This document shows, one piece after another, positions 9,546 to 24,258 of a stretch of DNA of 24,949 nt. Numbering within the stretch: position 1 is the stretch's first letter; every line of letters begins with the position of its first letter. The DNA lies in the UHGV virus genome UHGV-0184459; one strand, given 5' to 3'. Under the pieces are notes generated by a model. It had not been told where the DNA came from. It was given only the letters and a program-made list of their open reading frames with translations, and made no database searches. Made by a program: the position numbers and the translations under genes. The stretch is from a virus.

Positions 9546-11312
9546 ATGAACACCACACTGACACCCGCAGATCTCGATCCCCGTCGGCAGGCCATGCTGC
9601 TGTACTTTCAGGGATACCGCGTAGCCCGCATTGCTGAAATGCTGGGCGAGAAAGTTGCAACCGTTCACAGCTGGAAGAAACGCGACAAGTGGGGTGACTA
9701 TGGGCCGCTGGATCAGATGCAGCTCACCACCGCCGCACGTTACTGCCAGCTCATTATGAAGGAGCACAAAGAAGGGAAAGATTTCAAAGAAATTGACCTG
9801 CTGGCGCGCCAGTCGGAGCGCCACGCGCGGATCGGCAAGTTTAACAATGGCGGCAACGAAGCCGACTTAAACCCTAACGTCGCCAACCGCAACAAAGGCC
9901 CGCGCCGTCAGCCGGAAAAGAATGTTTTCACCGATGAACAGATAGAGAAACTGGAAGAAATCTTCCATTCCTCCATGTTCAACTACCAGCGCCACTGGTG
10001 GGAAGCCGGAAAAACCAACCGCATCCGCAACCTGCTGAAGTCACGCCAGATCGGCGCGACCTTTTACTTTGCCCGTGAAGCCCTGATTGACGCCCTGCTT
10101 ACCGGACGTAACCAGATTTTCCTTTCTGCCAGTAAGGCACAGGCTCACGTCTTTAAGCAGTACATCATCGACTTCGCCAAAGAAGTCGAGGTGGAGCTGA
10201 AAGGCGATCCGATGGTGCTTCCTAACGGGGCCACGCTTTACTTCCTCGGCACCAATGCCCGCACGGCGCAGAGTTACCACGGCAACCTGTATCTGGATGA
10301 ATATTTCTGGATACCGAAATTCCAGGAGTTGCGCAAAGTGGCTTCCGGTATGGCTATTCACAAGAAATGGCGACAAACCTATTTTTCCACGCCATCCAGC
10401 CTGACCCACAGTGCTTATCCGTTCTGGTCCGGTGCGCTGTTCAATCGTGGGCGCAACAAAGCCGATAAGGTGGACATCGACCTGTCCCACAGCAATCTGG
10501 CCCCCGGCCTGCTGTGCGCAGACGGGCAGTACCGCCAGATAGTCACTGTGGAAGATGCGGTGCGCGGCGGCTGTAACCTGTTCGACCTCGACCAGTTGCG
10601 CATGGAGTACAGCCCGGACGAATACCAGAACCTACTGATGTGCGAGTTTGTGGACGATCTCGCGTCCGTGTTTCCGCTCAGCGAGCTGCAGGCGTGCATG
10701 GTGGACAGTTGGGAAGTCTGGACCGACTTTCATGCTCTGGCCCTGCGCCCGTTTGGCTGGCGCGAAGTGTGGATCGGTTATGACCCGGCAAAAGGTACGC
10801 AGAACGGCGACAGCGCCGGATGCGTGGTGGTGGCACCGCCAGCCGTGCCGGGCGGTAAGTTTCGCATTCTTGAGCGTCACCAGTGGCGCGGGATGGACTT
10901 CCGCGCCCAGGCTGACGCAATCAAAAAACTGACCGAGCAGTACAACGTGACCTACATCGGCATCGACTCAACCGGCGTTGGTCACGGGGTTTACGAGAAC
11001 GTGAAAGCGTTCTTTCCTGCCGTCCGGGAGTTTGTCTACAACCCCAACGTTAAAAACGCCCTGGTACTCAAGGCCTACGACATTATCAGCCACCGCCGTC
11101 TGGAGTTTGACGCCGGACATACCGACATTGCGCAGTCATTTATGGCAATCCGTCGCGCCACCACCGCCAGTGGCAACCGCCCGACCTATGAAGCCAGCCG
11201 CAGCGAAGAAGCCAGCCACGCCGATCTGGCATGGGCAACGATGCACGCACTGTTTAACGAACCGCTGCAGGGCGAATCCGCCAATACCAGCAATATTGTG
11301 GAGATTTTTTGA
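9546..11312 (+). CDS. P: Terminase large (ATPase) subunit gpP
   Basis: 588 aa; N-terminus ...LDPRRQAMLLYFQGYRVARIAEMLGEKVATVHSWKKRDKW matches P2 gpP family. Confidence 0.9.
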   Translation: MNTTLTPADLDPRRQAMLLYFQGYRVARIAEMLGEKVATVHSWKKRDKWGDYGPLDQMQLTTAARYCQLIMKEHKEGKDFKEIDLLARQSERHARIGKFNNGGNEADLNPNVANRNKGPRRQPEKNVFTDEQIEKLEEIFHSSMFNYQRHWWEAGKTNRIRNLLKSRQIGATFYFAREALIDALLTGRNQIFLSASKAQAHVFKQYIIDFAKEVEVELKGDPMVLPNGATLYFLGTNARTAQSYHGNLYLDEYFWIPKFQELRKVASGMAIHKKWRQTYFSTPSSLTHSAYPFWSGALFNRGRNKADKVDIDLSHSNLAPGLLCADGQYRQIVTVEDAVRGGCNLFDLDQLRMEYSPDEYQNLLMCEFVDDLASVFPLSELQACMVDSWEVWTDFHALALRPFGWREVWIGYDPAKGTQNGDSAGCVVVAPPAVPGGKFRILERHQWRGMDFRAQADAIKKLTEQYNVTYIGIDSTGVGHGVYENVKAFFPAVREFVYNPNVKNALVLKAYDIISHRRLEFDAGHTDIAQSFMAIRRATTASGNRPTYEASRSEEASHADLAWATMHALFNEPLQGESANTSNIVEIF

Positions 11313-12346
11313 TGGGAAAGAGTAAGAAGAACCGAGCTGCGGCGACGAAACAGATCCAGCTTAAAAGTCAAACTACAGCCGAAGCATTCAGCTTCGGCGA
11401 TCCCGTTCCTGTTCTGGACCGCCGTGAACTGCTGGACTATGTGGAATGCGTACAGATGGACCGTTGGTATGAGCCGCCCGTCAGCTTTGACGGACTGGCG
11501 CGCACCTTCCGCGCCGCCGTGCATCACAGTTCCCCGATTGCAGTAAAGTGCAACATTCTGACCAGTACCTATATCCCTCATCCGCTGCTCAGCCAGCAGG
11601 CTTTTTCGCGTTTTGTGCAGGACTATCTGGTATTTGGTAACGCCTACCTGGAGAAACGCACGAACCGCTTCGGTGAAGTTATCGCCCTTGAACCTGCCCT
11701 GGCAAAATACACCCGACGCGGGTTAGACCTGGATACCTACTGGTTTGTGCAATACGGTATGACCACTCAGCCATATCAGTTCACGAAAGGCAGCATCTTT
11801 CATCTGATGGAACCGGACATCAACCAGGAGATCTACGGCCTGCCCGGTTATCTTTCTGCTATTCCATCCGCCCTGCTCAACGAGTCTGCCACGCTGTTCC
11901 GCCGCAAGTATTACATTAACGGCAGTCATGCAGGCTTCATCATGTATATGACCGACGCCGCGCAGAACCAGGAAGATGTGAACAACCTCCGCAACGCGAT
12001 GAAAAGCGCCAAAGGTCCAGGCAACTTCCGCAACCTGTTTATGTACTCGCCTAACGGCAAAAAGGACGGGCTTCAGATCATCCCGTTGTCAGAAGTCGCA
12101 GCGAAAGATGAATTTCTGAACATCAAGAACGTGAGCCGGGACGACATGATGGCGGCGCATCGTGTGCCGCCACAAATGATGGGGATAATGCCTAATAATG
12201 TCGGGGGGTTTGGGGATGTTGAGAAGGCGGCGCGTGTTTTCGTACGTAACGAACTTACACCACTCCAAGGCCGCGTGATAGAAATTAACGAGTGGCTGGA
12301 TGATGAAGTGATTCGCTTTAACCCATACCTGACTGAGGAAGATTAA
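11312..12346 (+). CDS. Q: Portal protein gpQ
   Basis: ATG at 11312 overlapping the P stop (TGATG); 344 aa; follows P as in the P2 P-Q operon. Confidence 0.9.
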   Translation: MGKSKKNRAAATKQIQLKSQTTAEAFSFGDPVPVLDRRELLDYVECVQMDRWYEPPVSFDGLARTFRAAVHHSSPIAVKCNILTSTYIPHPLLSQQAFSRFVQDYLVFGNAYLEKRTNRFGEVIALEPALAKYTRRGLDLDTYWFVQYGMTTQPYQFTKGSIFHLMEPDINQEIYGLPGYLSAIPSALLNESATLFRRKYYINGSHAGFIMYMTDAAQNQEDVNNLRNAMKSAKGPGNFRNLFMYSPNGKKDGLQIIPLSEVAAKDEFLNIKNVSRDDMMAAHRVPPQMMGIMPNNVGGFGDVEKAARVFVRNELTPLQGRVIEINEWLDDEVIRFNPYLTEED

Positions 12347-12433: not shown

Positions 12434-12453
12434 AAAACGCTCCTAAGAGCGTT
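12434..12453. terminator. Short hairpin (AAACGCTC-loop-GAGCGTTT) between convergent Q and the Toprim-like gene; possible bidirectional terminator
   Basis: 8-bp inverted repeat read directly; flanked by T-rich tracts on both strands; overlaps the stop codon of the 12443..13162 gene. Confidence 0.35.
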
Positions 12454-13162
12454 TCTGTTTACGGTTTGACTCTATTTGTTTTTTTAGCTGGATAAGCCTT
12501 TCAACTAACTCAAACACTTTTGTACTTGGATTATCAGTATCGCTAGCTTCAGCAGCCTGTAAACTTCTCTTAGCCCTAAGGACTACTTCATTTAAATCTT
12601 TTGACTCTAAAGCGTTTAGGGTTTTCTGAAAAATCCCTTTTGAGCCTTTCTCATAGTCCTTAATATATTTTCTTAACTCATTTACAATTTGATTTCCTGA
12701 ACTATTACCAGGTAAATTTCTAAATGCCTTTGTCGAATAGGTATAATGTAGAAGTAACCAATATTCAAAACAAGGTACTGAATTCACAGTAAACCAAGTT
12801 GAGCTTGGTTTACTTCTCCTGATAGCGTCAAGCGCTGCCATGTAATCAGAGTGGGCATCCTTATCAATCACTACAAAGATTTGATCATAAGGAGCCCCCT
12901 GTTCAGTCATTTTTTTATGCTGTTCTTTTGCATGACGAACAACACACATAGGACTAGAGCCACATTCTCCAGTTACATCAATTACACTTGCTGTAAGTAA
13001 TTCAAAATGATTTATCAAATCCTCAAAGTAATTTGGTTCAGTTTTTTTACCCTCACAAACAATTAATATTTTAGCGAGAGGGGATTTTATTGCATTACGT
13101 CTTGCTAGATCCTTAGCCGTTTTAGGGGCACGTTTCTTTTTGAATAAATCCTCGCTTCCCAT
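12443..13162 (-). CDS. Toprim-like (RloB/AbiLii-like) protein, candidate nuclease partner of the upstream ATPase
   Basis: 239 aa; N-terminal ILIVCEGKKTEPNYF (conserved Glu) and downstream IFVVIDKDAHSD (DxD) fit a Toprim/RloB pattern; C-terminal NPST motif; ATG 1 nt after the ATPase stop; AT-rich codon usage unlike the phage backbone. Confidence 0.6.
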   Translation of the reverse strand: MGSEDLFKKKRAPKTAKDLARRNAIKSPLAKILIVCEGKKTEPNYFEDLINHFELLTASVIDVTGECGSSPMCVVRHAKEQHKKMTEQGAPYDQIFVVIDKDAHSDYMAALDAIRRSKPSSTWFTVNSVPCFEYWLLLHYTYSTKAFRNLPGNSSGNQIVNELRKYIKDYEKGSKGIFQKTLNALESKDLNEVVLRAKRSLQAAEASDTDNPSTKVFELVERLIQLKKQIESNRKQKRS

Positions 13163-13163
13163 A

Positions 13164-14429
13164 TCAAATCCCCGTCAATTTCTTGATGAACGGCAATGCT
13201 CCATACCGACCGTCTAGGTATGCGGCTTCTAAATTTTCTCTTCCTTTCCTTGGACTAAAATCAGTCAATGGATATAGATTAGTTTCACTGAGTTCATTTT
13301 TCTCACAAAACCAAACTTGATCACGTCTAAAAATGCTTTGATTCAGAATGGATGTTTCATGTGTTGAGAAAATTAACTGCGCACCTTTTTTATTAGTAAC
13401 CGGACTATTAAAAAGATTTACCAAGAAACTAACCAACTTTGGATGCAATGTATCGTGAAGCTCGTCGATTAATAGTACATATCCATTATCGAGCGCATCT
13501 AACCATGGACCAGCTAAAGAAAAAAGCTTTTGAGTGCCATGAGATTCCTCTTCAAGAGAAAAACTTACCGGCTCACCTTTATCGTTATAATGGACAGTAG
13601 TAACATCAAAAACTTCTTTATCCTTCATATTAGAAATAACGATTTTTTTGATATCATCTGGCATATCAGATGGCAAATCATCTGGATTAAATTTTTCTCT
13701 CTTAACTAAAACATCATCAATGCCAATATCTGCAGCTTGCAAAAAATTCAAGATATCTTTCTTCATATCCTCGGTGCAGCGTTTAGCGGAGAATGTATTA
13801 GCCCATCCATTAATTCCAGAAAGTCTCAGTGTTTTTTTAAACCAAGTAAAAACAGGCTTAAGCTGCTCGCTATTTAATTGAACAGCTGTAGACAAGAACA
13901 GGGCATTATTTCTAGTTGAACGCTGCCAAACTTGTTTTTCACCAAGTAGTGATGCGCCAAAATCCCAATCATATTCCTGCTTCTCTTCATCCCAAGCTCT
14001 GAAATACCACTTTTGAGGCCTTCCTTTTGGGTACGCAAAGAGCCATTCATCAATAATTCTTTCATTTGTAGCAGAAAAACCAAATTGATACCGGGTGCCC
14101 TCTGCAATAAAAGTAACTTCAAATTCAGTAGGTTTTTTAATTGAATCTGAATCAAGCTTGAAGGGGAATACGGGAACCTCTTCACCAGCCTGAGAGTTAG
14201 ATGCAGAGTGGATAACTAAATCCATCATAGCCCTGACAGCCAGAAGTACATTCGACTTGCCCGCTGCATTCGCACCGTAAATAACAGCTGACTTTAGAAC
14301 ATTAAGGTTAACGTTTCCCTCTACTGTAAAGATATTCTCTTCTAACTCGTTACTTTTGTTAGCAATAAGTGAAAGTGTTTGTTTGTTTTTGATTGAGAGA
14401 TAGTTCTCAACATTGAATTCAATAAGCAT
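13164..14429 (-). CDS. AAA/ABC-type ATPase (AAA_15/AAA_21-like), candidate anti-phage defence ATPase
   Basis: 421 aa; Walker A GANAAGKSN, Walker B/D-loop LLIDELHDTLHP, H-loop-like FSTHETSIL; strong AGGAGG Shine-Dalgarno; AT-rich. Confidence 0.75.
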   Translation of the reverse strand: MLIEFNVENYLSIKNKQTLSLIANKSNELEENIFTVEGNVNLNVLKSAVIYGANAAGKSNVLLAVRAMMDLVIHSASNSQAGEEVPVFPFKLDSDSIKKPTEFEVTFIAEGTRYQFGFSATNERIIDEWLFAYPKGRPQKWYFRAWDEEKQEYDWDFGASLLGEKQVWQRSTRNNALFLSTAVQLNSEQLKPVFTWFKKTLRLSGINGWANTFSAKRCTEDMKKDILNFLQAADIGIDDVLVKREKFNPDDLPSDMPDDIKKIVISNMKDKEVFDVTTVHYNDKGEPVSFSLEEESHGTQKLFSLAGPWLDALDNGYVLLIDELHDTLHPKLVSFLVNLFNSPVTNKKGAQLIFSTHETSILNQSIFRRDQVWFCEKNELSETNLYPLTDFSPRKGRENLEAAYLDGRYGALPFIKKLTGI

Positions 14430-15414: not shown

Positions 15415-17829
15415 TTAATACAGGTTTCGCCACTTATCATCTTCCTGCAAACGCTGGTTCCGATAGAAGATACGCAGGCCTGCTCCTGACGGAATACTGC
15501 CGCCGCGAAGCAGTAAATCGACCTCTTTCTCGCTGCCATCAAATCCCCTGGACTTCAGTTCATACACGAGCTGCTGTCGCTGATGATCTGTAATTCGCTG
15601 TTTGTAGTCTTTACGCCGTTTCGGTTTCACAAGGCGTAACCTTGCTGCCAGTTCCCGGCGCTCTTTTTTGCTCATACTGTGCAGGTAATCGTGCAACTCC
15701 TTGTCATCCATGCGGGTGATATCCGTTCTGGTATCTCCATCAGCTGATTTGTCTTTCCCTTGTTGGTACAAATTTTCAGCAAGGGGACAGTTATTGCCAC
15801 GAGTCCAAGGGGCGCAAGCGCCCTGGTCGGCTGCCGCCTCCTGAACGTCAACGGCTTTACGAACCATTTTCCACTTCACTGCATGAGTGCAGATCTTGCC
15901 CTCTGCAATGGGTGACCAGATGCCATAAATACGAATGCCGTGATCGCCATAGGCGGTCGGCTCTTCGTTGATTTCATAAGCGGTTCTGATGAGGTGATAT
16001 TTACGGGGAACCAGTACGCCGCCCTGCTTCATGATGTAGGTGGCAAAACAACCAGCATCAGCAGCAGCCAGAATGGCATCAAGACGCGGGTTATCCAGTA
16101 CCGGCGCACCTGCTTTTTTGTCACCCTGTTGCCTTGCCGCCTGACCAGCCAGCAAGCGAAGTTCACGGTAAGCCTGACGCCCCGGAATACCAAAGAAGCG
16201 GAATTGCTGAACACGATGCAGAGACGCCCAGGCATTCACGTATTCAGCGTTATCACGCAGAGATTTACCCGTTTCCTTGCTGATCTCGCCAGCCAGACCA
16301 CGACCGTCAATGTTCTTACTGATATATTTCGCGATGTAGCTTGTCGGCGTTCCTTTGCGCGGGTTAATCAACTCAGACTTAAAGCGCGGCCCAGTGTTAT
16401 TGCCCAGCTCCTCGCGGTCTTCACGGATGGCAAACTTACGCAGTAATGCAGTGATGGCACGGCGGTCTTTTTTGCGCATGAAACACAACAGGTGCCAGTG
16501 AACTGTGCCATCATGATGCGGCTCAGCCACCCGCACGCCATACCAGCGCAACCCGGCTTTGTGCATCGCCTTACGAAATGCAGCAAACATGCCGACCAGA
16601 TAATCGCTGCTTTGTCTTACCGTCGCGTTTGTCCAGGTCGGGTTTGGTCTGCCGTTATTTAGCGTGGAATGGAAACGCGACGGACAGGTGATAGTGTAGA
16701 AAACGGCGCAGTCACCGCGCATTTCCGCGATAAGCTCCAGACCTTTAACACAGGCCATCATCTCATTGCGGCGATGCGCAGGGTTGCTGCTGCTGGCGTT
16801 TACCACATCCTCCATGTCCAGCGTGTCGCCGTCTTCGTTCACCAGTTCATGAGAACGGAAAAACTCCAGCGACTTACGGCGCTGCTCACGTTTATGCATC
16901 ACGGCTTCATAGCTGACATAAGGAGATGCTTTTTTGCTGACCAGGCAAACAGCGCGCAACTGCTCTTCCCGCCATTCGCAACGCATCTTCCATAATTTCC
17001 GATACCACCAGTCGGCGCACAACATACGCGCCAGCGAACCCGGAATGAGTTCATAGGGCACGGGTTTACGGCGGTTTCTTTTCCGACGGAGTTGCTCAAA
17101 CGCAGGTGGGATGACATCCAGACGCAGGGTTTCCGCTGCCACCTTTTCCCATGTCTTGCGGATTTCTTCTGGCTTAACGTCATCGGTGGCATACAAATCA
17201 CCACAAGCTGCATCAAGGCACATACTCATATGCGCAGCTACCAGGGTGGACAGGCGTTTCACCTGATCCTGACTCATTTCAGGCAGGATCAGCAGGCCGT
17301 CCAGCCCTTCATGGCTTGCCATAAAGCGAAAAGATGCAGATAGCTGACTGTCGCGTACATGCTCCAGTCGTTCCAGACATGGCTTAATCGTCTCACGTAA
17401 ATAGCGGGAATAAGCCTTTGGCCTGCCCAGGCTGCTGAAGTATTCAATACGTTGCATCAGCGGCTTGCTGATATGGGAAGGCTGGGCGTTGACGTCCGCC
17501 AGAATGACCATGTCTGAATTAAAACGCTGCTGCTCATGCGCCAGCTTTGCCCGGCTAATGAGCTTATCCTGCTCCATTTCGCGCTGGACAGGATCACGTG
17601 ATTCATTAAAGAAATAACGCTCCCAGACCTGATCACTCAGTGCCTCGCGGCGCAACTGTTCCTGCTCGTTATCGGCAGCGTACAGAGTGATCAGGTTTGA
17701 AAGCGTAGAAACCGGCGCAACTTCCGCCGGGTCCAGATAAGGGTTAATGGCCTTTTTCGGGCTGTTCCATGAGAATGCTGCGGCAGCCTCGTTAAAGCCG
17801 CAGCAGTTGTTCATATCGGCATGACTCAT
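15415..17829 (-). CDS. A: Rolling-circle replication initiation protein gpA
   Basis: 804 aa; HUH motif ([10 protein letters not shown]) and tyrosine motif ([10 protein letters not shown]); size and position as P2/186 A. Confidence 0.9.
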
Positions 17830-20829: not shown

Positions 20830-21426
20830 ATGTCAACATCAAAGTACCCAAGTGAGATCAAAATAAATCCCAATAAAGGTGGTAAGGCTGCGATTGAGCG
20901 ATTAGTCGAAGCCTATGGCTTTACGACACGACAGGCTTTAGCTGATCACTTGGAAGTATCAAAAAGCACACTAGCGAACAGGTATTTGCGGGATACATTT
21001 CCTGCTGACTGGATAATCCAATGTGCTCTTGAAACAGGAACCTCCCTCAAATGGTTAACTACCGGACAAGGCCTTAAGCAAAGCTCGCTGACAGCAGCTA
21101 CAGAAGAGCTTGTTAAGTTTCGCCTTGCCGCAGGCAAAATGATTGAAGACGGTTCATATGTCTTCGATTCATCATTTCTTCCTGCAAACCTTTCATCACC
21201 AATTGTTGTTCAGGATGGACTCGTCACATACATTTGTGATCAAAAATTTTCTGAAGTACTTGATGGAAACTGGTTAATCAATATCGACGGAACCTATTCC
21301 ATTCGAAAAATCACAAGGCTTCCTAAAGGAATGATTAAAATTACAACAGCAGAGAATAGCTTTGAATGTGCATTTTCTGATATTGAAGTGGTTGCTTGTA
21401 TAAGAAGTACAATAGTCTCGAATTAA
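20830..21426 (+). CDS. cI: CI immunity repressor (phage 186 type)
   Basis: 198 aa; N-terminal HTH region (ERLVEAYGFTTRQALADHLEVSKSTLANRY) and C-terminal domain; divergent from apl/cII as in 186. Confidence 0.8.
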   Translation: MSTSKYPSEIKINPNKGGKAAIERLVEAYGFTTRQALADHLEVSKSTLANRYLRDTFPADWIIQCALETGTSLKWLTTGQGLKQSSLTAATEELVKFRLAAGKMIEDGSYVFDSSFLPANLSSPIVVQDGLVTYICDQKFSEVLDGNWLINIDGTYSIRKITRLPKGMIKITTAENSFECAFSDIEVVACIRSTIVSN

Positions 21427-21446
21427 TATAGTAAAAGGATTTTAAA

Positions 21447-23123
21447 ATGAATTCATTTGCCATCGTTATACTCTTATTAGCATTTCTCGCCCCTGTTCTA
21501 GCTGTAATATTATTTAAACAAAGTAAAAAACACAAAGCGGCTATAGATAACCTGACAGCTAACAACATAGCCCTTTCTAACCAACTGATTGAAAATCAAG
21601 AAAAACTAGCACAGACCGTACGAGAATTATCAGAGCTTGAAGGGCGAGCAGCACCATTGTGGCAATACGAAGAATTGCACAGCGCAGTAATGGATGCAGA
21701 GAATAAGATAAAAAATGCGGACTCAATAGCCAAGCAAAAAATAGATGAAGCCCAAATTAAGGCAGCTAAAACAGTAAACGAAGCAAATTATCAAGCTCAG
21801 ATGACAATAAGCAACGCTAATAGCGAAGCTATAGCAATCACCAAAGACGCTCGCGATGCACGCCTGAAAGCCAAAGAACGTCTTGATAATGCTAATAATA
21901 AAGCAAATGAGCTAATCTCAAATGCTAATGACAATGCAGTAAAAATTATTTCTGATGCAGAAGAAAGAGCAAAGGAGATTGCTGGTTCAGCATATGAAGC
22001 TAAAGAGTTTGCAGAAAAATATGAAGCAGTTGCAAAATCAATGAAAAATAAAATTGAAGGTTATGGTGATGAATGGATCATCCCTAACCGTAGTGTACTT
22101 GATGAGCTGGCAGAAAATTATGAATTTACAGATGCAGGCAAGGAATTACAAAAAGCCAGAGAGTTAACCAAATCATTAATAAAAACTAATAAAGCTGCTT
22201 CGTGTGATTATGTTGAGCAAAAGAGGCGTAATACTGCCATAAACTTTGTTTTGGATGCCTTCAATGGAAGAGTTGACAGTATTTTATCAAAAGTCAAACA
22301 CAACAATTTTGGAAAACTTTCCCAAGAAATAAAAGATGCATTTCAACTAGTAAATTACAATGGCTCTGCCTTTAGGTCCGCAAAAATAAGTGACATCTAT
22401 CTTCAGGCAAGACTCAACGAGCTAAAATGGGGTGTAGCAGTTAATGAAATTATGCTCGAAGAAAAAGAAGAGCAAAGAAGGATTAAAGAACAGCTTCGTG
22501 AAGAGGAAAGAGCTCGTAGAGAATATGAAAAAGCGATAAAAGAAGCTGAAAAAGAAGAAAAAGCTATTCAGCAAGCTATAAATAAAGCAACGAAAGAACT
22601 TATGCTTGCAAATGAAGAACAACGCTTAGCTTTAGAGCAAAAAATAGCTGAACTACAGTTAAAATATGAAGAAGCTGAAGCTAAAAATCAACGAGCTATT
22701 TCTATGGCTCAACAAACCAGATCAGGCCACGTCTATATCATTAGTAATATTGGTTCATTTGGCGAAGATGTATATAAAATTGGAATGACACGCCGCCTTG
22801 AACCACTTGATCGTGTTCGTGAACTCGGAGATGCTAGTGTTCCTTTTTCGTTCGATGTTCATGCGATGATTTATAGTGATGATGCACCATCATTAGAAAA
22901 CCATCTGCATAAAGTTTTCAACGAAAAGCAGGTCAATAAAATTAACTCACGAAAAGAGTTTTTTAACGTAAATTTAAAAGAAATTAAATCAGTTATTGAA
23001 GACATGAACATCAACGCCCACTGGACAATGTTTGCAGAGGCGAAAGAATATAGAGAGTCTCTAGCTATTGAGCAGGAGCGCAAAGCAGCCACTTCCGCCA
23101 ACGATGAACTACATGTTGCTTAG
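21447..23123 (+). CDS. Membrane-anchored coiled-coil protein with DUF4041-like and C-terminal T5orf172 (GIY-YIG-like) domains; cargo gene
   Basis: 558 aa; N-terminal TM helix (FAIVILLLAFLAPVLAVILF), long Lys/Glu/Ala-rich coiled coil, C-terminal GHVYIISNIGSFGEDVYKIGMTRRLEPLDRVRELGDASVPFSFDVHAMIY...LENHLHKVF matching the T5orf172 pattern; strongly AT-rich. Confidence 0.7.
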   Translation: MNSFAIVILLLAFLAPVLAVILFKQSKKHKAAIDNLTANNIALSNQLIENQEKLAQTVRELSELEGRAAPLWQYEELHSAVMDAENKIKNADSIAKQKIDEAQIKAAKTVNEANYQAQMTISNANSEAIAITKDARDARLKAKERLDNANNKANELISNANDNAVKIISDAEERAKEIAGSAYEAKEFAEKYEAVAKSMKNKIEGYGDEWIIPNRSVLDELAENYEFTDAGKELQKARELTKSLIKTNKAASCDYVEQKRRNTAINFVLDAFNGRVDSILSKVKHNNFGKLSQEIKDAFQLVNYNGSAFRSAKISDIYLQARLNELKWGVAVNEIMLEEKEEQRRIKEQLREEERARREYEKAIKEAEKEEKAIQQAINKATKELMLANEEQRLALEQKIAELQLKYEEAEAKNQRAISMAQQTRSGHVYIISNIGSFGEDVYKIGMTRRLEPLDRVRELGDASVPFSFDVHAMIYSDDAPSLENHLHKVFNEKQVNKINSRKEFFNVNLKEIKSVIEDMNINAHWTMFAEAKEYRESLAIEQERKAATSANDELHVA

Positions 23124-23181
23124 CAATGTATGTTTCATAGTAATCACACATTGATTACTGGTTACATATACAGTTAAATTT

Positions 23182-23205
23182 AGCCCTCTGATATGAGGGC
23201 TTTTT
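23182..23205 (+). terminator. Rho-independent terminator (AGCCCTC-tgatat-GAGGGCT + TTTT) ending at the int start codon
   Basis: 7-bp GC-rich stem, 6-nt loop, T-run; read directly. Confidence 0.5.
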
Positions 23206-24258
23206 ATGGCAGTACGAAAACTAACCACAGGGAAATGGCTTTGCGAATGTTACCCCGCCGGACGAAGTGGGCGTCGTGTGCGTAAACAATTCGCTACCAA
23301 AGGCGAAGCACTGGCTTTTGAGCGCCACACGATGGAAGAAACCGAAGCAAAGCCCTGGCTGGGTGAATCAGTGGATCGTCGAACACTGAAAGACGTGGTT
23401 GAGCTATGGTTCAAACTACATGGTAAATCTCTGACAGCTGGGCAGCATGTCTATGACAAATTGCTGTTGATGGTTGACGCTCTGGGCAATCCTCTTGCAA
23501 CCGATCTCACCTCTAAAATGTTTGCCCACTATCGAGATAAACGCCTGACAGGCGAGATCTACTTCAGCGAGAAATGGAAGAAAGGAGCAAGCCCGGTCAC
23601 CATTAACCTGGAGCAAAGCTATCTAAGTAGTGTTTTTAGCGAACTATCCCGTCTGGGCGAATGGTCGTATCCGAACCCACTGGAGAACATGCGAAAATTC
23701 ACCATCGCAGAAAAAGAGATGGCATGGCTTACCCATGAGCAGATTGTTGAATTGCTGGCTGATTGCAAACGTCAGGACCCAATTCTGGCACTGGTAGTTA
23801 AGATATGCTTAAGCACAGGCGCACGCTGGCGTGAAGCCGTAAATCTTACCCGCTCACAGGTGACCAAATACCGAATTACCTTTGTCAGAACGAAGGGGAA
23901 GAAAAACAGAAGCATCCCTATCAGTAAAGAGCTTTACGAAGAGATCATGGCGCTTGATGGGTTCAATTTCTTCACAGACTGCTATTTTCAATTTTTATCC
24001 GTGATGGAAAAAACGTCTATCGTGCTCCCTCGCGGTCAACTCACACACGTTCTGCGCCATACGTTTGCGGCGCACTTCATGATGTCGGGTGGAAACATTC
24101 TGGCCTTACAAAAAATTCTCGGACACCACGATATAAAAATGACTATGCGTTACGCACATCTGGCACCGGATCATCTAGAAACGGCGCTCCGTTTCAATCC
24201 TCTGGCAACGCTGCCAAGTGGCGACAAAGTGGCGGCAGCGGTTGGCATTACCCCGTAA
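23206..24258 (+). CDS. int: Tyrosine integrase (P2/186 family)
   Basis: 350 aa; conserved catalytic regions GARWREA (Arg), HVLRHTFA (His/Arg), MRYAHL (Tyr); adjacent to att region. Confidence 0.9.
   Translation: MAVRKLTTGKWLCECYPAGRSGRRVRKQFATKGEALAFERHTMEETEAKPWLGESVDRRTLKDVVELWFKLHGKSLTAGQHVYDKLLLMVDALGNPLATDLTSKMFAHYRDKRLTGEIYFSEKWKKGASPVTINLEQSYLSSVFSELSRLGEWSYPNPLENMRKFTIAEKEMAWLTHEQIVELLADCKRQDPILALVVKICLSTGARWREAVNLTRSQVTKYRITFVRTKGKKNRSIPISKELYEEIMALDGFNFFTDCYFQFLSVMEKTSIVLPRGQLTHVLRHTFAAHFMMSGGNILALQKILGHHDIKMTMRYAHLAPDHLETALRFNPLATLPSGDKVAAAVGITP

What the first reader, a model, noticed from the sequence alone, without database searches (positions are those of the whole stretch)
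21447..23123. AT-rich cargo gene inserted between cI and int: membrane-anchored coiled-coil protein with C-terminal T5orf172 (GIY-YIG-like) domain
Seen in sequence: a 558-aa ORF with an N-terminal transmembrane helix, a long Lys/Glu/Ala-rich coiled coil and a C-terminal segment (GHVYIISNIGSFGEDVYKIGMTRRLEPLDRVRELGDASVPFSFDVH...LENHLHKVF) that fits the T5orf172/DUF4041 pattern. It sits in a strongly AT-rich block immediately after cI and carries its own terminator. Established knowledge: in P2 and 186 the repressor gene and int are adjacent, so this is an inserted gene expressed from the lysogenic transcript. Inference: candidate superinfection-exclusion or defence effector. I am not aware of a defined function for this architecture.
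Basis: partly seen in the sequence, partly recalled or inferred. Interest (0 to 1): 0.65.

Follow-up and report, generated by a model that had tools for sequence, protein, structure and literature searches.

The report
SNIPE (PD-λ-1) anti-phage nuclease gene

Summary
The 558-aa ORF at 21447..23123 (+) is real. It has one N-terminal transmembrane helix, long helical regions, a DUF4041 domain and a C-terminal T5orf172/MUG113 (GIY-YIG) domain.

It matches the PADLOC model PD-Lambda-1 at E=2e-120. Over DUF4041, linker and nuclease it is 50% identical to the experimentally studied PD-λ-1 protein of ECOR26, and 74% identical in the nuclease domain. The catalytic Glu is conserved (reference E414 = E484 here). 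[quoted passage not shown] RefSeq already labels this exact gene "DUF4041 / SNIPE associated domain-containing protein".

It sits 20 nt after cI in a 186-like (Peduoviridae) prophage integrated next to rcdA. In phage 186, Cartapus and RE2010, cI and int abut. In sibling E. coli prophages the same slot holds at least 8 different contents, so it is a cargo hotspot. The swapped unit is the cI C-terminal domain plus the cargo.

The "own terminator" belongs to the conserved int leader, not to the cargo.

The N-terminal stalk is unlike the studied SNIPE and about 70 aa longer, so phage specificity may differ.

Verdict: a known system in a known type of hotspot. Interest is low.

The parts
21447..23123 (+). 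SNIPE / PD-lambda-1 family gene (558 aa): a membrane-anchored GIY-YIG nuclease for anti-phage defence.
   Evidence: ORF. PADLOC PD-Lambda-1 at E=2e-120. PHROG 1847 at 2.5e-133. BLASTP to the reference PD-lambda-1 of phage PhiR26_1 gives 50% identity over aa 265-555, E=5e-77.
21456..21515 (+). Single N-terminal transmembrane helix (aa 4-23), followed by the basic stretch KQSKKHK. Predicted topology is N-out/C-in.
   Evidence: Hydropathy scan, charge, coordinates.
21519..22058 (+). N-terminal helical stalk (aa 25-204). It is unrelated in sequence to the studied SNIPE, about 70 aa longer, and the fastest-evolving part among orthologues. It is the putative specificity or adapter region.
   Evidence: Alignment with the reference gives 25% identity with many gaps. 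Weak DivIVA and V-ATPase-E hits. 65-75% variable columns in TM + aa 25-125. Helices 2-64 and 72-203.
22245..22412 (+). DUF4041 domain, PF13250, now labelled 'SNIPE' in newer Pfam (aa 267-322). In the reference it binds DNA and contacts the phage tape measure protein.
   Evidence: Pfam 3e-12. 'PF13250:SNIPE' label. Function from PMC13190303.
22422..22721 (+). Long Glu/Lys/Arg-rich linker helix (aa 326-425) between DUF4041 and the nuclease.
   Evidence: 47% identical to the reference. Helix 317-425 in the model.
22725..23006 (+). GIY-YIG-type nuclease domain (T5orf172/MUG113; aa 427-520). The catalytic Glu E484 is encoded at 22896-22898.
   Evidence: Pfam hits. 74% identity to the reference nuclease domain, with reference E414 aligned to E484.
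20830..21426 (+). cI repressor (198 aa), immediately upstream. Its C-terminal domain (from about 21050) belongs to the same exchanged low-GC module as the cargo.
   Evidence: Pfam Phage_CI_repr + Phage_CI_C. Homology breakpoints at 21012-21082. cI alignment. Near-full-length copies of this cI allele occur in 163 E. coli genomes and of the gene in 163, and 164 genomes hold the contiguous cI-gene-int region.
23124..23205 (+). Conserved int leader. It holds a promoter-like element (TTGATT 23151-23156, 17 nt, TTAAAT 23174-23179) and a hairpin at 23182-23201 whose 3' arm GAGGGCT contains the int Shine-Dalgarno. A T-run follows and leads into the int ATG.
   Evidence: Terminator scan, sequence, conservation upstream of int irrespective of cargo.
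23206..24258 (+). Tyrosine integrase (350 aa). The prophage end abuts host rcdA.
   Evidence: Pfam Int_N + Phage_integrase. Matches in 1135 E. coli genomes. rcdA flank.

Best explanation
The gene encodes a member of the SNIPE (PD-lambda-1) family. This is a single-protein, direct (non-abortive) anti-phage defence carried as cargo by a 186-like temperate myovirus.

Proposed mechanism, by homology to the studied E. coli SNIPE:
1. The protein is made constitutively in the lysogen, most likely on the cI transcript.
2. [quoted passage not shown] This keeps the non-specific GIY-YIG nuclease away from the chromosome.
3. When a phage injects its genome, the stalk and the DUF4041 domain engage the injection machinery, that is the tape measure protein and/or an inner-membrane entry factor, and the entering DNA.
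4. The nuclease cuts that DNA before infection can start.
5. DNA already in the cell, including the resident prophage, is spared.

What is shown here: family membership, the domain layout, conservation of the catalytic Glu, and the genomic setting.

What is inferred: expression, membrane localisation, nuclease activity and target phages.
For: Family match: PADLOC PD-Lambda-1 at E=2e-120, covering aa 105-550 against model positions 35-481 of 491.

Domains: Pfam DUF4041, T5orf172 and MUG113, all above their cut-offs.

Similarity to the reference: 50% identity (E=5e-77) to the reference PD-lambda-1 of ECOR26 phage PhiR26_1 over DUF4041, linker and nuclease, and 74% in the nuclease domain. Reference E414, whose E414A change abolishes defence and toxicity, aligns with E484 (PMC13190303).

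Membrane anchor: a single TM helix with positive-inside topology, as in the reference.

Annotation: RefSeq names the identical gene 'SNIPE associated domain-containing protein' or 'DUF4041 domain-containing protein'.

Expression: the gene starts 20 nt after cI, has its own SD, and no promoter-like site lies between them.

Slot: the same slot in sibling prophages holds other cargo, including an OLD/AriA-like ATPase.

Second defence system: the same prophage carries AbiL in the classical P2 hotspot.

Divergence pattern: variation is fastest in the TM and stalk and slowest in the nuclease, matching the published family pattern.
Against: No experiment exists on this orthologue.

The N-terminal ~260 aa cannot be aligned to the studied protein, and DUF4041 is only 28% identical. 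Residues tied to tape-measure binding in the reference differ here: W257 is K327, E223 is S292 and N250 is Q320. Partner proteins and phage range therefore cannot be transferred from the reference.

The AlphaFold2 model was too poor (pLDDT 51.9) to confirm the folds independently. No solved structure is detectable by sequence.

Co-transcription with cI has not been demonstrated.
Confidence: 0.88

Rival explanations
1. The protein is an abortive-infection or toxin-type effector. In this reading the membrane-tethered nuclease is released or activated on infection, degrades host DNA and kills the cell to stop phage spread, rather than directly cutting incoming DNA.
For: The untethered reference protein is highly toxic and cleaves the chromosome (PMC13190303). 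The stalk and DUF4041 interface here differ from the reference, so regulation could differ.
Against: The reference system is a direct defence: infected cells survive and grow, and phage DNA is cut during injection. Nuclease, linker and topology are conserved here. There is no partner antitoxin gene in the slot.
Confidence: 0.06
2. The protein is a superinfection-exclusion factor aimed at related P2/186-like myoviruses, or at other non-siphoviruses, rather than at siphoviruses. The divergent stalk would recognise a different entry apparatus.
For: The gene is inherited as a unit with the cI C-terminal domain, that is with the immunity module. The stalk is unrelated to that of the ManYZ-associated reference. 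The literature proposes the N-terminal region as the specificity adapter.
Against: The reference SNIPE protected against no myovirus or podovirus of the BASEL set. [quoted passage not shown] Homo-immune superinfection is already blocked by cI.
Confidence: 0.05
3. The T5orf172/GIY-YIG domain marks a selfish homing-endonuclease-like or DNA-binding (Bro-like) phage gene with no defence role.
For: T5orf172 and GIY-YIG domains also occur in phage homing endonucleases and Bro-type proteins (general knowledge). The gene is AT-rich and horizontally mobile.
Against: The TM anchor, DUF4041, the full-length PADLOC match and the 50% identity to a validated defence protein all argue otherwise. The gene occupies a cargo slot and does not interrupt a conserved gene.
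Confidence: 0.01

Closest known systems
SNIPE (= PD-lambda-1) of E. coli ECOR26 phage PhiR26_1. Protein RCP76574.1 / XSB42081.1, 500 aa. Vassallo et al. 2022 (PMC9519451); Saxton et al. 2026 (PMC13190303).
   Same: The order of parts is the same: TM helix, helical N-terminal region, DUF4041, long linker helix, GIY-YIG (T5orf172/MUG113) nuclease. Both are single-gene systems carried by temperate phages. Identity is 50% over the C-terminal 290 aa and 74% in the nuclease, and the catalytic Glu is conserved.
   Different: This protein is 58 aa longer, with about 70 extra residues in the N-terminal stalk. The stalk and TM cannot be aligned to the reference, and DUF4041 is only 28% identical. Residues at the tape-measure interface differ. 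The carrier is a 186-like myovirus prophage with the gene in the cI-int slot on the lysogenic strand, whereas the reference lies in a lambdoid phage between ren and rha.
cI-int defence hotspot of Vibrio K139-like P2-related phages (Rousset et al. 2022, PMC9122126), and the 'integrase-primase' minor hotspot of P2-like prophages (Moura de Sousa et al. 2026, PMC13586616).
   Same: [quoted passage not shown]
   Different: Here the hosts are Enterobacteriaceae and the backbone is 186/Elveevirus-like. The exchanged unit includes the cI C-terminal domain, and a conserved hairpin leader precedes int. I did not find PD-lambda-1 named in either paper's main text.
Membrane-associated entry-stage defences and exclusion systems such as Zorya and Kiwa, as compared in the SNIPE paper's discussion.
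   Same: They act at the inner membrane at the time of genome injection.
   Different: They have unrelated proteins and multi-gene architectures. No sequence relationship was found or tested here.

Membership tests
SNIPE / PD-lambda-1 | Full-length match to the family profile used by defence-system finders. | tested here: met
   PADLOC PDLC03976 at E=2e-120 and PDLC03977 at 6e-117, covering aa 105-551.
SNIPE / PD-lambda-1 | Central DUF4041 (PF13250) domain. | tested here: met
   Pfam 46.6 bits against a cut-off of 27, aa 267-322. The domain is labelled 'SNIPE' in the precomputed newer Pfam.
SNIPE / PD-lambda-1 | C-terminal GIY-YIG-type nuclease (T5orf172/MUG113) with the catalytic Glu (E414 in the reference). 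| tested here: met
   T5orf172 at 63.3 bits and MUG113 at 72.7 bits. 74% identity to the reference domain, and E414 aligns with E484. Nuclease activity itself was not tested.
SNIPE / PD-lambda-1 | N-terminal membrane targeting. The reference has a single-pass TM, N-out/C-in. About 66% of homologues have 1-2 TM helices. | tested here: met
   One hydrophobic segment at aa 4-23 (KD 3.16) followed by KQSKKHK. No dedicated TM predictor was available, and localisation is untested.
SNIPE / PD-lambda-1 | Stand-alone single-gene system. | tested here: met
   It is the only gene between cI and int here and in Klebsiella, Citrobacter and Enterobacter prophages.
SNIPE / PD-lambda-1 | Protects against phage by cleaving DNA during injection, and interacts with the tape measure protein and/or ManYZ. 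| not testable with these tools
   Known only for the reference protein. The interface residues differ here.
SNIPE / PD-lambda-1 | Predicted elongated fold: TM, helical stalk, DUF4041 bundle, linker helix, alpha/beta nuclease. | tested here: inconclusive
   The secondary-structure order agrees, but the model has mean pLDDT 51.9 and pTM 0.22. No fold search was attempted.
P2-like prophage defence hotspot cargo | The locus lies between conserved backbone genes and has different contents in otherwise near-identical prophages. | tested here: met
   At least 8 different contents in 14 sampled loci sharing the int and cII/apl flanks at 90-98% identity. The slot is empty in 186, Cartapus and RE2010.

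The most novel reading that the evidence does not exclude
The 558-aa enterobacterial form may be a functionally distinct SNIPE subtype. Its long stalk resembles ATP-synthase-b or DivIVA, and its DUF4041 surface is diverged. These could direct it to a different inner-membrane entry factor or tape-measure class than the ManYZ/lambda-oriented reference, giving a different phage range.

It is also exchanged together with the cI C-terminal domain, as one 'immunity plus defence' cassette, at a cI-int hotspot. The other occupants of that hotspot have no PADLOC hit, and only the DUF4747 one carries any family name. They are proteins of 314, 348 and 488 aa, a three-gene set, and a DUF4747 pair, and they would be candidates for new defence systems.
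Probability: 0.3. Interest if true: 0.4.

Novelty: already known. Interest (0 to 1): 0.2.

Why it matters
The practical value is correct annotation. Phage records currently call this gene 'chromosome segregation ATPase'. It is in fact a SNIPE-family entry-stage nuclease, present in about 3% of complete E. coli genomes (164 of 5426) and across Enterobacteriaceae.

The cI-int slot of enterobacterial 186-like prophages is a compact place to look for further, still unnamed, defence genes.

None of this changes current understanding.

Tried and rejected
Structure prediction: AlphaFold2 on a 20-sequence alignment of 82-100% identical homologues gave mean pLDDT 51.9. That is too low for a fold search, so none was run and the second job was not spent.

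Solved structures: sequence searches with the whole protein and with the nuclease domain found nothing meaningful.

NCBIfam: only weak coiled-coil-type hits (DivIVA, SMC, V-ATPase E), all far below their cut-offs. I treat them as compositional or helical similarity.

Coiled coil: a simple Fourier test for heptad periodicity supported a coiled coil only for aa 25-64, so 'coiled coil' is not asserted for the rest.

Promoters: the scan found fewer sites than expected by chance in this region (4 against 9.0), so no promoter claims rest on it.

tRNA at the attachment site: none in the window.

First boundary script: it returned nothing because all loci are stored in one file. It was re-run correctly.

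NAR 2026 P2 survey: I looked for PD-lambda-1 in its supplements, but none are held.

Homing-endonuclease reading: rejected (see rivals).

Full report
**1. The observation**

It begins 20 nt after the cI stop codon and has its own Shine-Dalgarno (AAAGGA, 21434-21439).

A hydropathy scan finds one strongly hydrophobic segment and no other. It spans aa 4-23, with a mean Kyte-Doolittle value of 3.16. The basic stretch KQSKKHK follows it, which predicts an N-out/C-in single-pass anchor.

Pfam gives three hits, all above the curated cut-offs:
- DUF4041, aa 267-322, E=3e-12.
- T5orf172, aa 427-520, E=3e-17.
- MUG113, aa 443-520, E=4e-20.

The protein is rich in Ala, Glu and Lys. An AlphaFold2 run gave only a low-confidence model (mean pLDDT 51.9), so I use only its secondary structure. 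That shows helices at 2-64 and 72-203, a helical bundle at 215-310, a helix at 317-425, and then an alpha/beta domain at 431-530. Heptad periodicity is clear only for aa 25-64. 'Long helices' is therefore shown, and 'coiled coil' is not.

The gene is 36.9% GC, against 48.8% for int and 52% for the rest of the prophage. The low-GC block starts inside cI at about 21050.

**2. What it is**

The PADLOC library matches the protein to PD-Lambda-1 at E=2e-120 over nearly its whole length. PD-lambda-1 came out of a functional selection for anti-phage genes in E. coli (Vassallo et al. 2022, PMC9519451). The source protein is RCP76574.1 of ECOR26, 500 aa, with DUF4041 at 197-252 and T5orf172 at 357-448.

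In 2026 the same laboratory renamed it SNIPE and worked out how it acts (Saxton et al., Nature, PMC13190303):
- The TM helix sequesters the nuclease from the chromosome. The TM-deleted protein is toxic and makes double-strand breaks.
- E414A abolishes both defence and toxicity.
- DUF4041 binds DNA and contacts the phage tape measure protein.
- The protein associates with ManYZ, the inner-membrane entry factor of lambda.
- It protects against siphoviruses, but not against the myoviruses or podoviruses tested.
- It does not affect an induced prophage.

The reference gene is present in the phage collection as 'PD-lambda-1' of phage PhiR26_1. Compared directly, the two proteins are 50% identical over aa 265-555 of ours (E=5e-77).

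Identity by region:

| Region | Identity to reference |
|---|---|
| TM helix | 30% |
| N-terminal stalk | 25%, with many gaps |
| DUF4041 | 28% |
| Linker helix | 47% |
| Nuclease | 74% |

Reference E414 aligns with E484, encoded at 22896-22898.

RefSeq already annotates the identical gene as 'DUF4041 domain-containing protein' or 'SNIPE associated domain-containing protein'. The precomputed newer Pfam labels PF13250 as 'SNIPE'. Membership of the family is therefore secure at the sequence level. Activity, localisation and targets are inferred.

**3. Setting**

The window is a Peduoviridae (186/Elveevirus-like) prophage. It is 90% covered at 97.7% identity by the isolated myovirus vB_EcoM-813R9, and it resembles Klebsiella phages KP12 and 4LV2017. 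The prophage is integrated next to rcdA.

cI and int abut in phage 186 (cI 22433-23011, int 21423-22433) and in Cartapus and RE2010.

The insertion is not unique, however. Among complete E. coli genomes:
- The int matches 1135 genomes.
- This cI allele matches 171 genomes (163 near full length).
- The SNIPE-like gene matches 164 genomes (163 near full length).
- The contiguous cI-gene-int region is present in 164 genomes.

In sibling prophages with the same flanks, the slot holds something else:

| Slot content | Locus |
|---|---|
| 63-aa ORF | L007, L008, L009, L024 |
| 314-aa protein | L010, L011 |
| Three small ORFs | L012 |
| 488-aa protein | L022 |
| DUF4747 protein plus a 201-aa protein | L023 |
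| 662-aa OLD/AriA-like ATPase | L006 |
| 348-aa protein (Klebsiella phage 4LV2017) | L002 |

BLASTN breakpoints place the left edge of the exchanged segment inside cI, at 21012-21082, which is after the HTH domain. The right edge is at 23124-23166, just after the stop codon. The cI proteins share the N-terminal domain and diverge in the C-terminal one. The mobile unit is thus the cI C-terminal domain plus the cargo.

The same cI(198 aa), 20 nt, 558-aa gene, ~82 nt, int layout recurs in Klebsiella, Citrobacter and Enterobacter, with different integrases and host flanks. The 558-aa form is found at 82-100% identity across many enterobacterial genera.

A repressor-integrase hotspot in P2-related phages was already described for Vibrio (Rousset et al. 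2022). A 2026 survey lists an 'integrase-primase' minor hotspot holding 8% of P2 defence systems. So the setting is also of a known kind.

**4. The 'terminator'**

The hairpin at 23182-23201 (AGCCCTC / TGATAT / GAGGGCT, then a T-run) runs directly into the int ATG at 23206. Its 3' arm contains the int Shine-Dalgarno.

The whole 60-80 nt leader is conserved upstream of int whatever the cargo. The 5' arm varies in a way that keeps pairing: GCCCTC or GCTCTC against the constant GAGGGC. A -35/-10-like element lies just before the hairpin. The hairpin therefore belongs to int regulation, not to the cargo. Whether it terminates the cI-cargo transcript, masks the int ribosome-binding site, or both, is untested.

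**5. Mechanism and rivals**

The best explanation is the SNIPE mechanism as described in section 2 (confidence 0.88).

What differs from the studied protein is the part thought to set specificity:
- The stalk is unrelated and about 70 aa longer.
- Residues at the tape-measure interface differ: W257 is K327, E223 is S292 and N250 is Q320.
- Among the 558-aa orthologues, variation concentrates in the TM and the first 100 stalk residues, with 65-75% variable columns against 13-20% in the linker and nuclease.

This mirrors the published family-wide pattern. It also fits the authors' catalogue of TM-bearing homologues with N-termini resembling ATP-synthase-b, DivIVA or FtsB.

The rivals are an abortive-infection toxin, exclusion of P2-like phages, and a selfish endonuclease. 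All are less likely, for the reasons given with each.

**6. Novelty and score**

This is a known defence system. Standard tools and current RefSeq annotation recognise it, and it sits in a known type of prophage hotspot. The orthologue itself is untested and has a distinct stalk, which leaves a modest chance of a different phage range. Interest is 0.2.

Noticed in passing
window 12443..14429 (- strand): There is a second defence system in the same prophage. AbiLi (421-aa ORF, 13164..14429; PADLOC 2e-99, Pfam AAA_21) and AbiLii (239-aa ORF, 12443..13162; PADLOC 2e-29, Pfam RloB) sit between the portal gene (11309..12346) and the replication gene gpA (15415..17829). That is the classical P2 old/tin hotspot.
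   Followed up: partly
window 23124..23205: This is a conserved int leader. It has a promoter-like element (TTGATT, 17 nt, TTAAAT) and then a hairpin whose 3' arm is the int Shine-Dalgarno, followed by a T-run into the ATG. Sibling prophages keep the pairing with a C-to-T change in the 5' arm. A transcript starting near 23186 could not form the hairpin, so read-through from cI might be terminated or masked while an int-specific transcript is translated. This is untested.
   Followed up: partly
window ~21012..23166; loci L002, L006-L012, L022-L025: The cI-int slot of enterobacterial 186-like prophages next to rcdA is a cargo hotspot with at least 8 different contents. The exchanged unit includes the cI C-terminal domain. 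Most occupants (314, 348 and 488 aa, a three-gene set, DUF4747 + 201 aa, a 63-aa ORF) have no PADLOC hit, and those scanned against Pfam have no Pfam hit, so they are candidates for unnamed defence genes. One occupant is an OLD/AriA-like ATPase.
   Followed up: partly
phage records ON470620 (27859-29463), OM835953, KP836356, OZ018341, MW221967: Homologues of this gene are annotated 'chromosome segregation ATPase' in several phage records. No ATPase domain was found, so this looks like a mis-annotation caused by the coiled-coil-like composition.
   Followed up: no
L005 (Synechococcus phage Ssp-JY37, 4908-6575); Marinitoga viruses (H85, H86): These are unexpectedly close homologues (52-55% identity over 73-89% of the protein) in phages recorded from a cyanobacterium and from Thermotogae. 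The family either moves very widely, or host assignment of the Synechococcus records deserves a check, since their neighbours look like a proteobacterial temperate phage.
   Followed up: no
H154 (NZ_CP116094.1) and L011 (NZ_CP119120.1): Insertion sequences hit this slot. An IS4-like ISVsa5 interrupts the SNIPE-like gene in strain DETEC-S560, and an ISKox3 sits between the cargo and int in strain GENOMIC22-004.
   Followed up: no
L024 (E. coli T7Express/BL21 derivative, NZ_CP053597.1): The laboratory B-strain derivative carries a degraded relative of this prophage at the same rcdA site. It has truncated gpA and cII genes and the 63-aa ORF in the cI-int slot.
   Followed up: no
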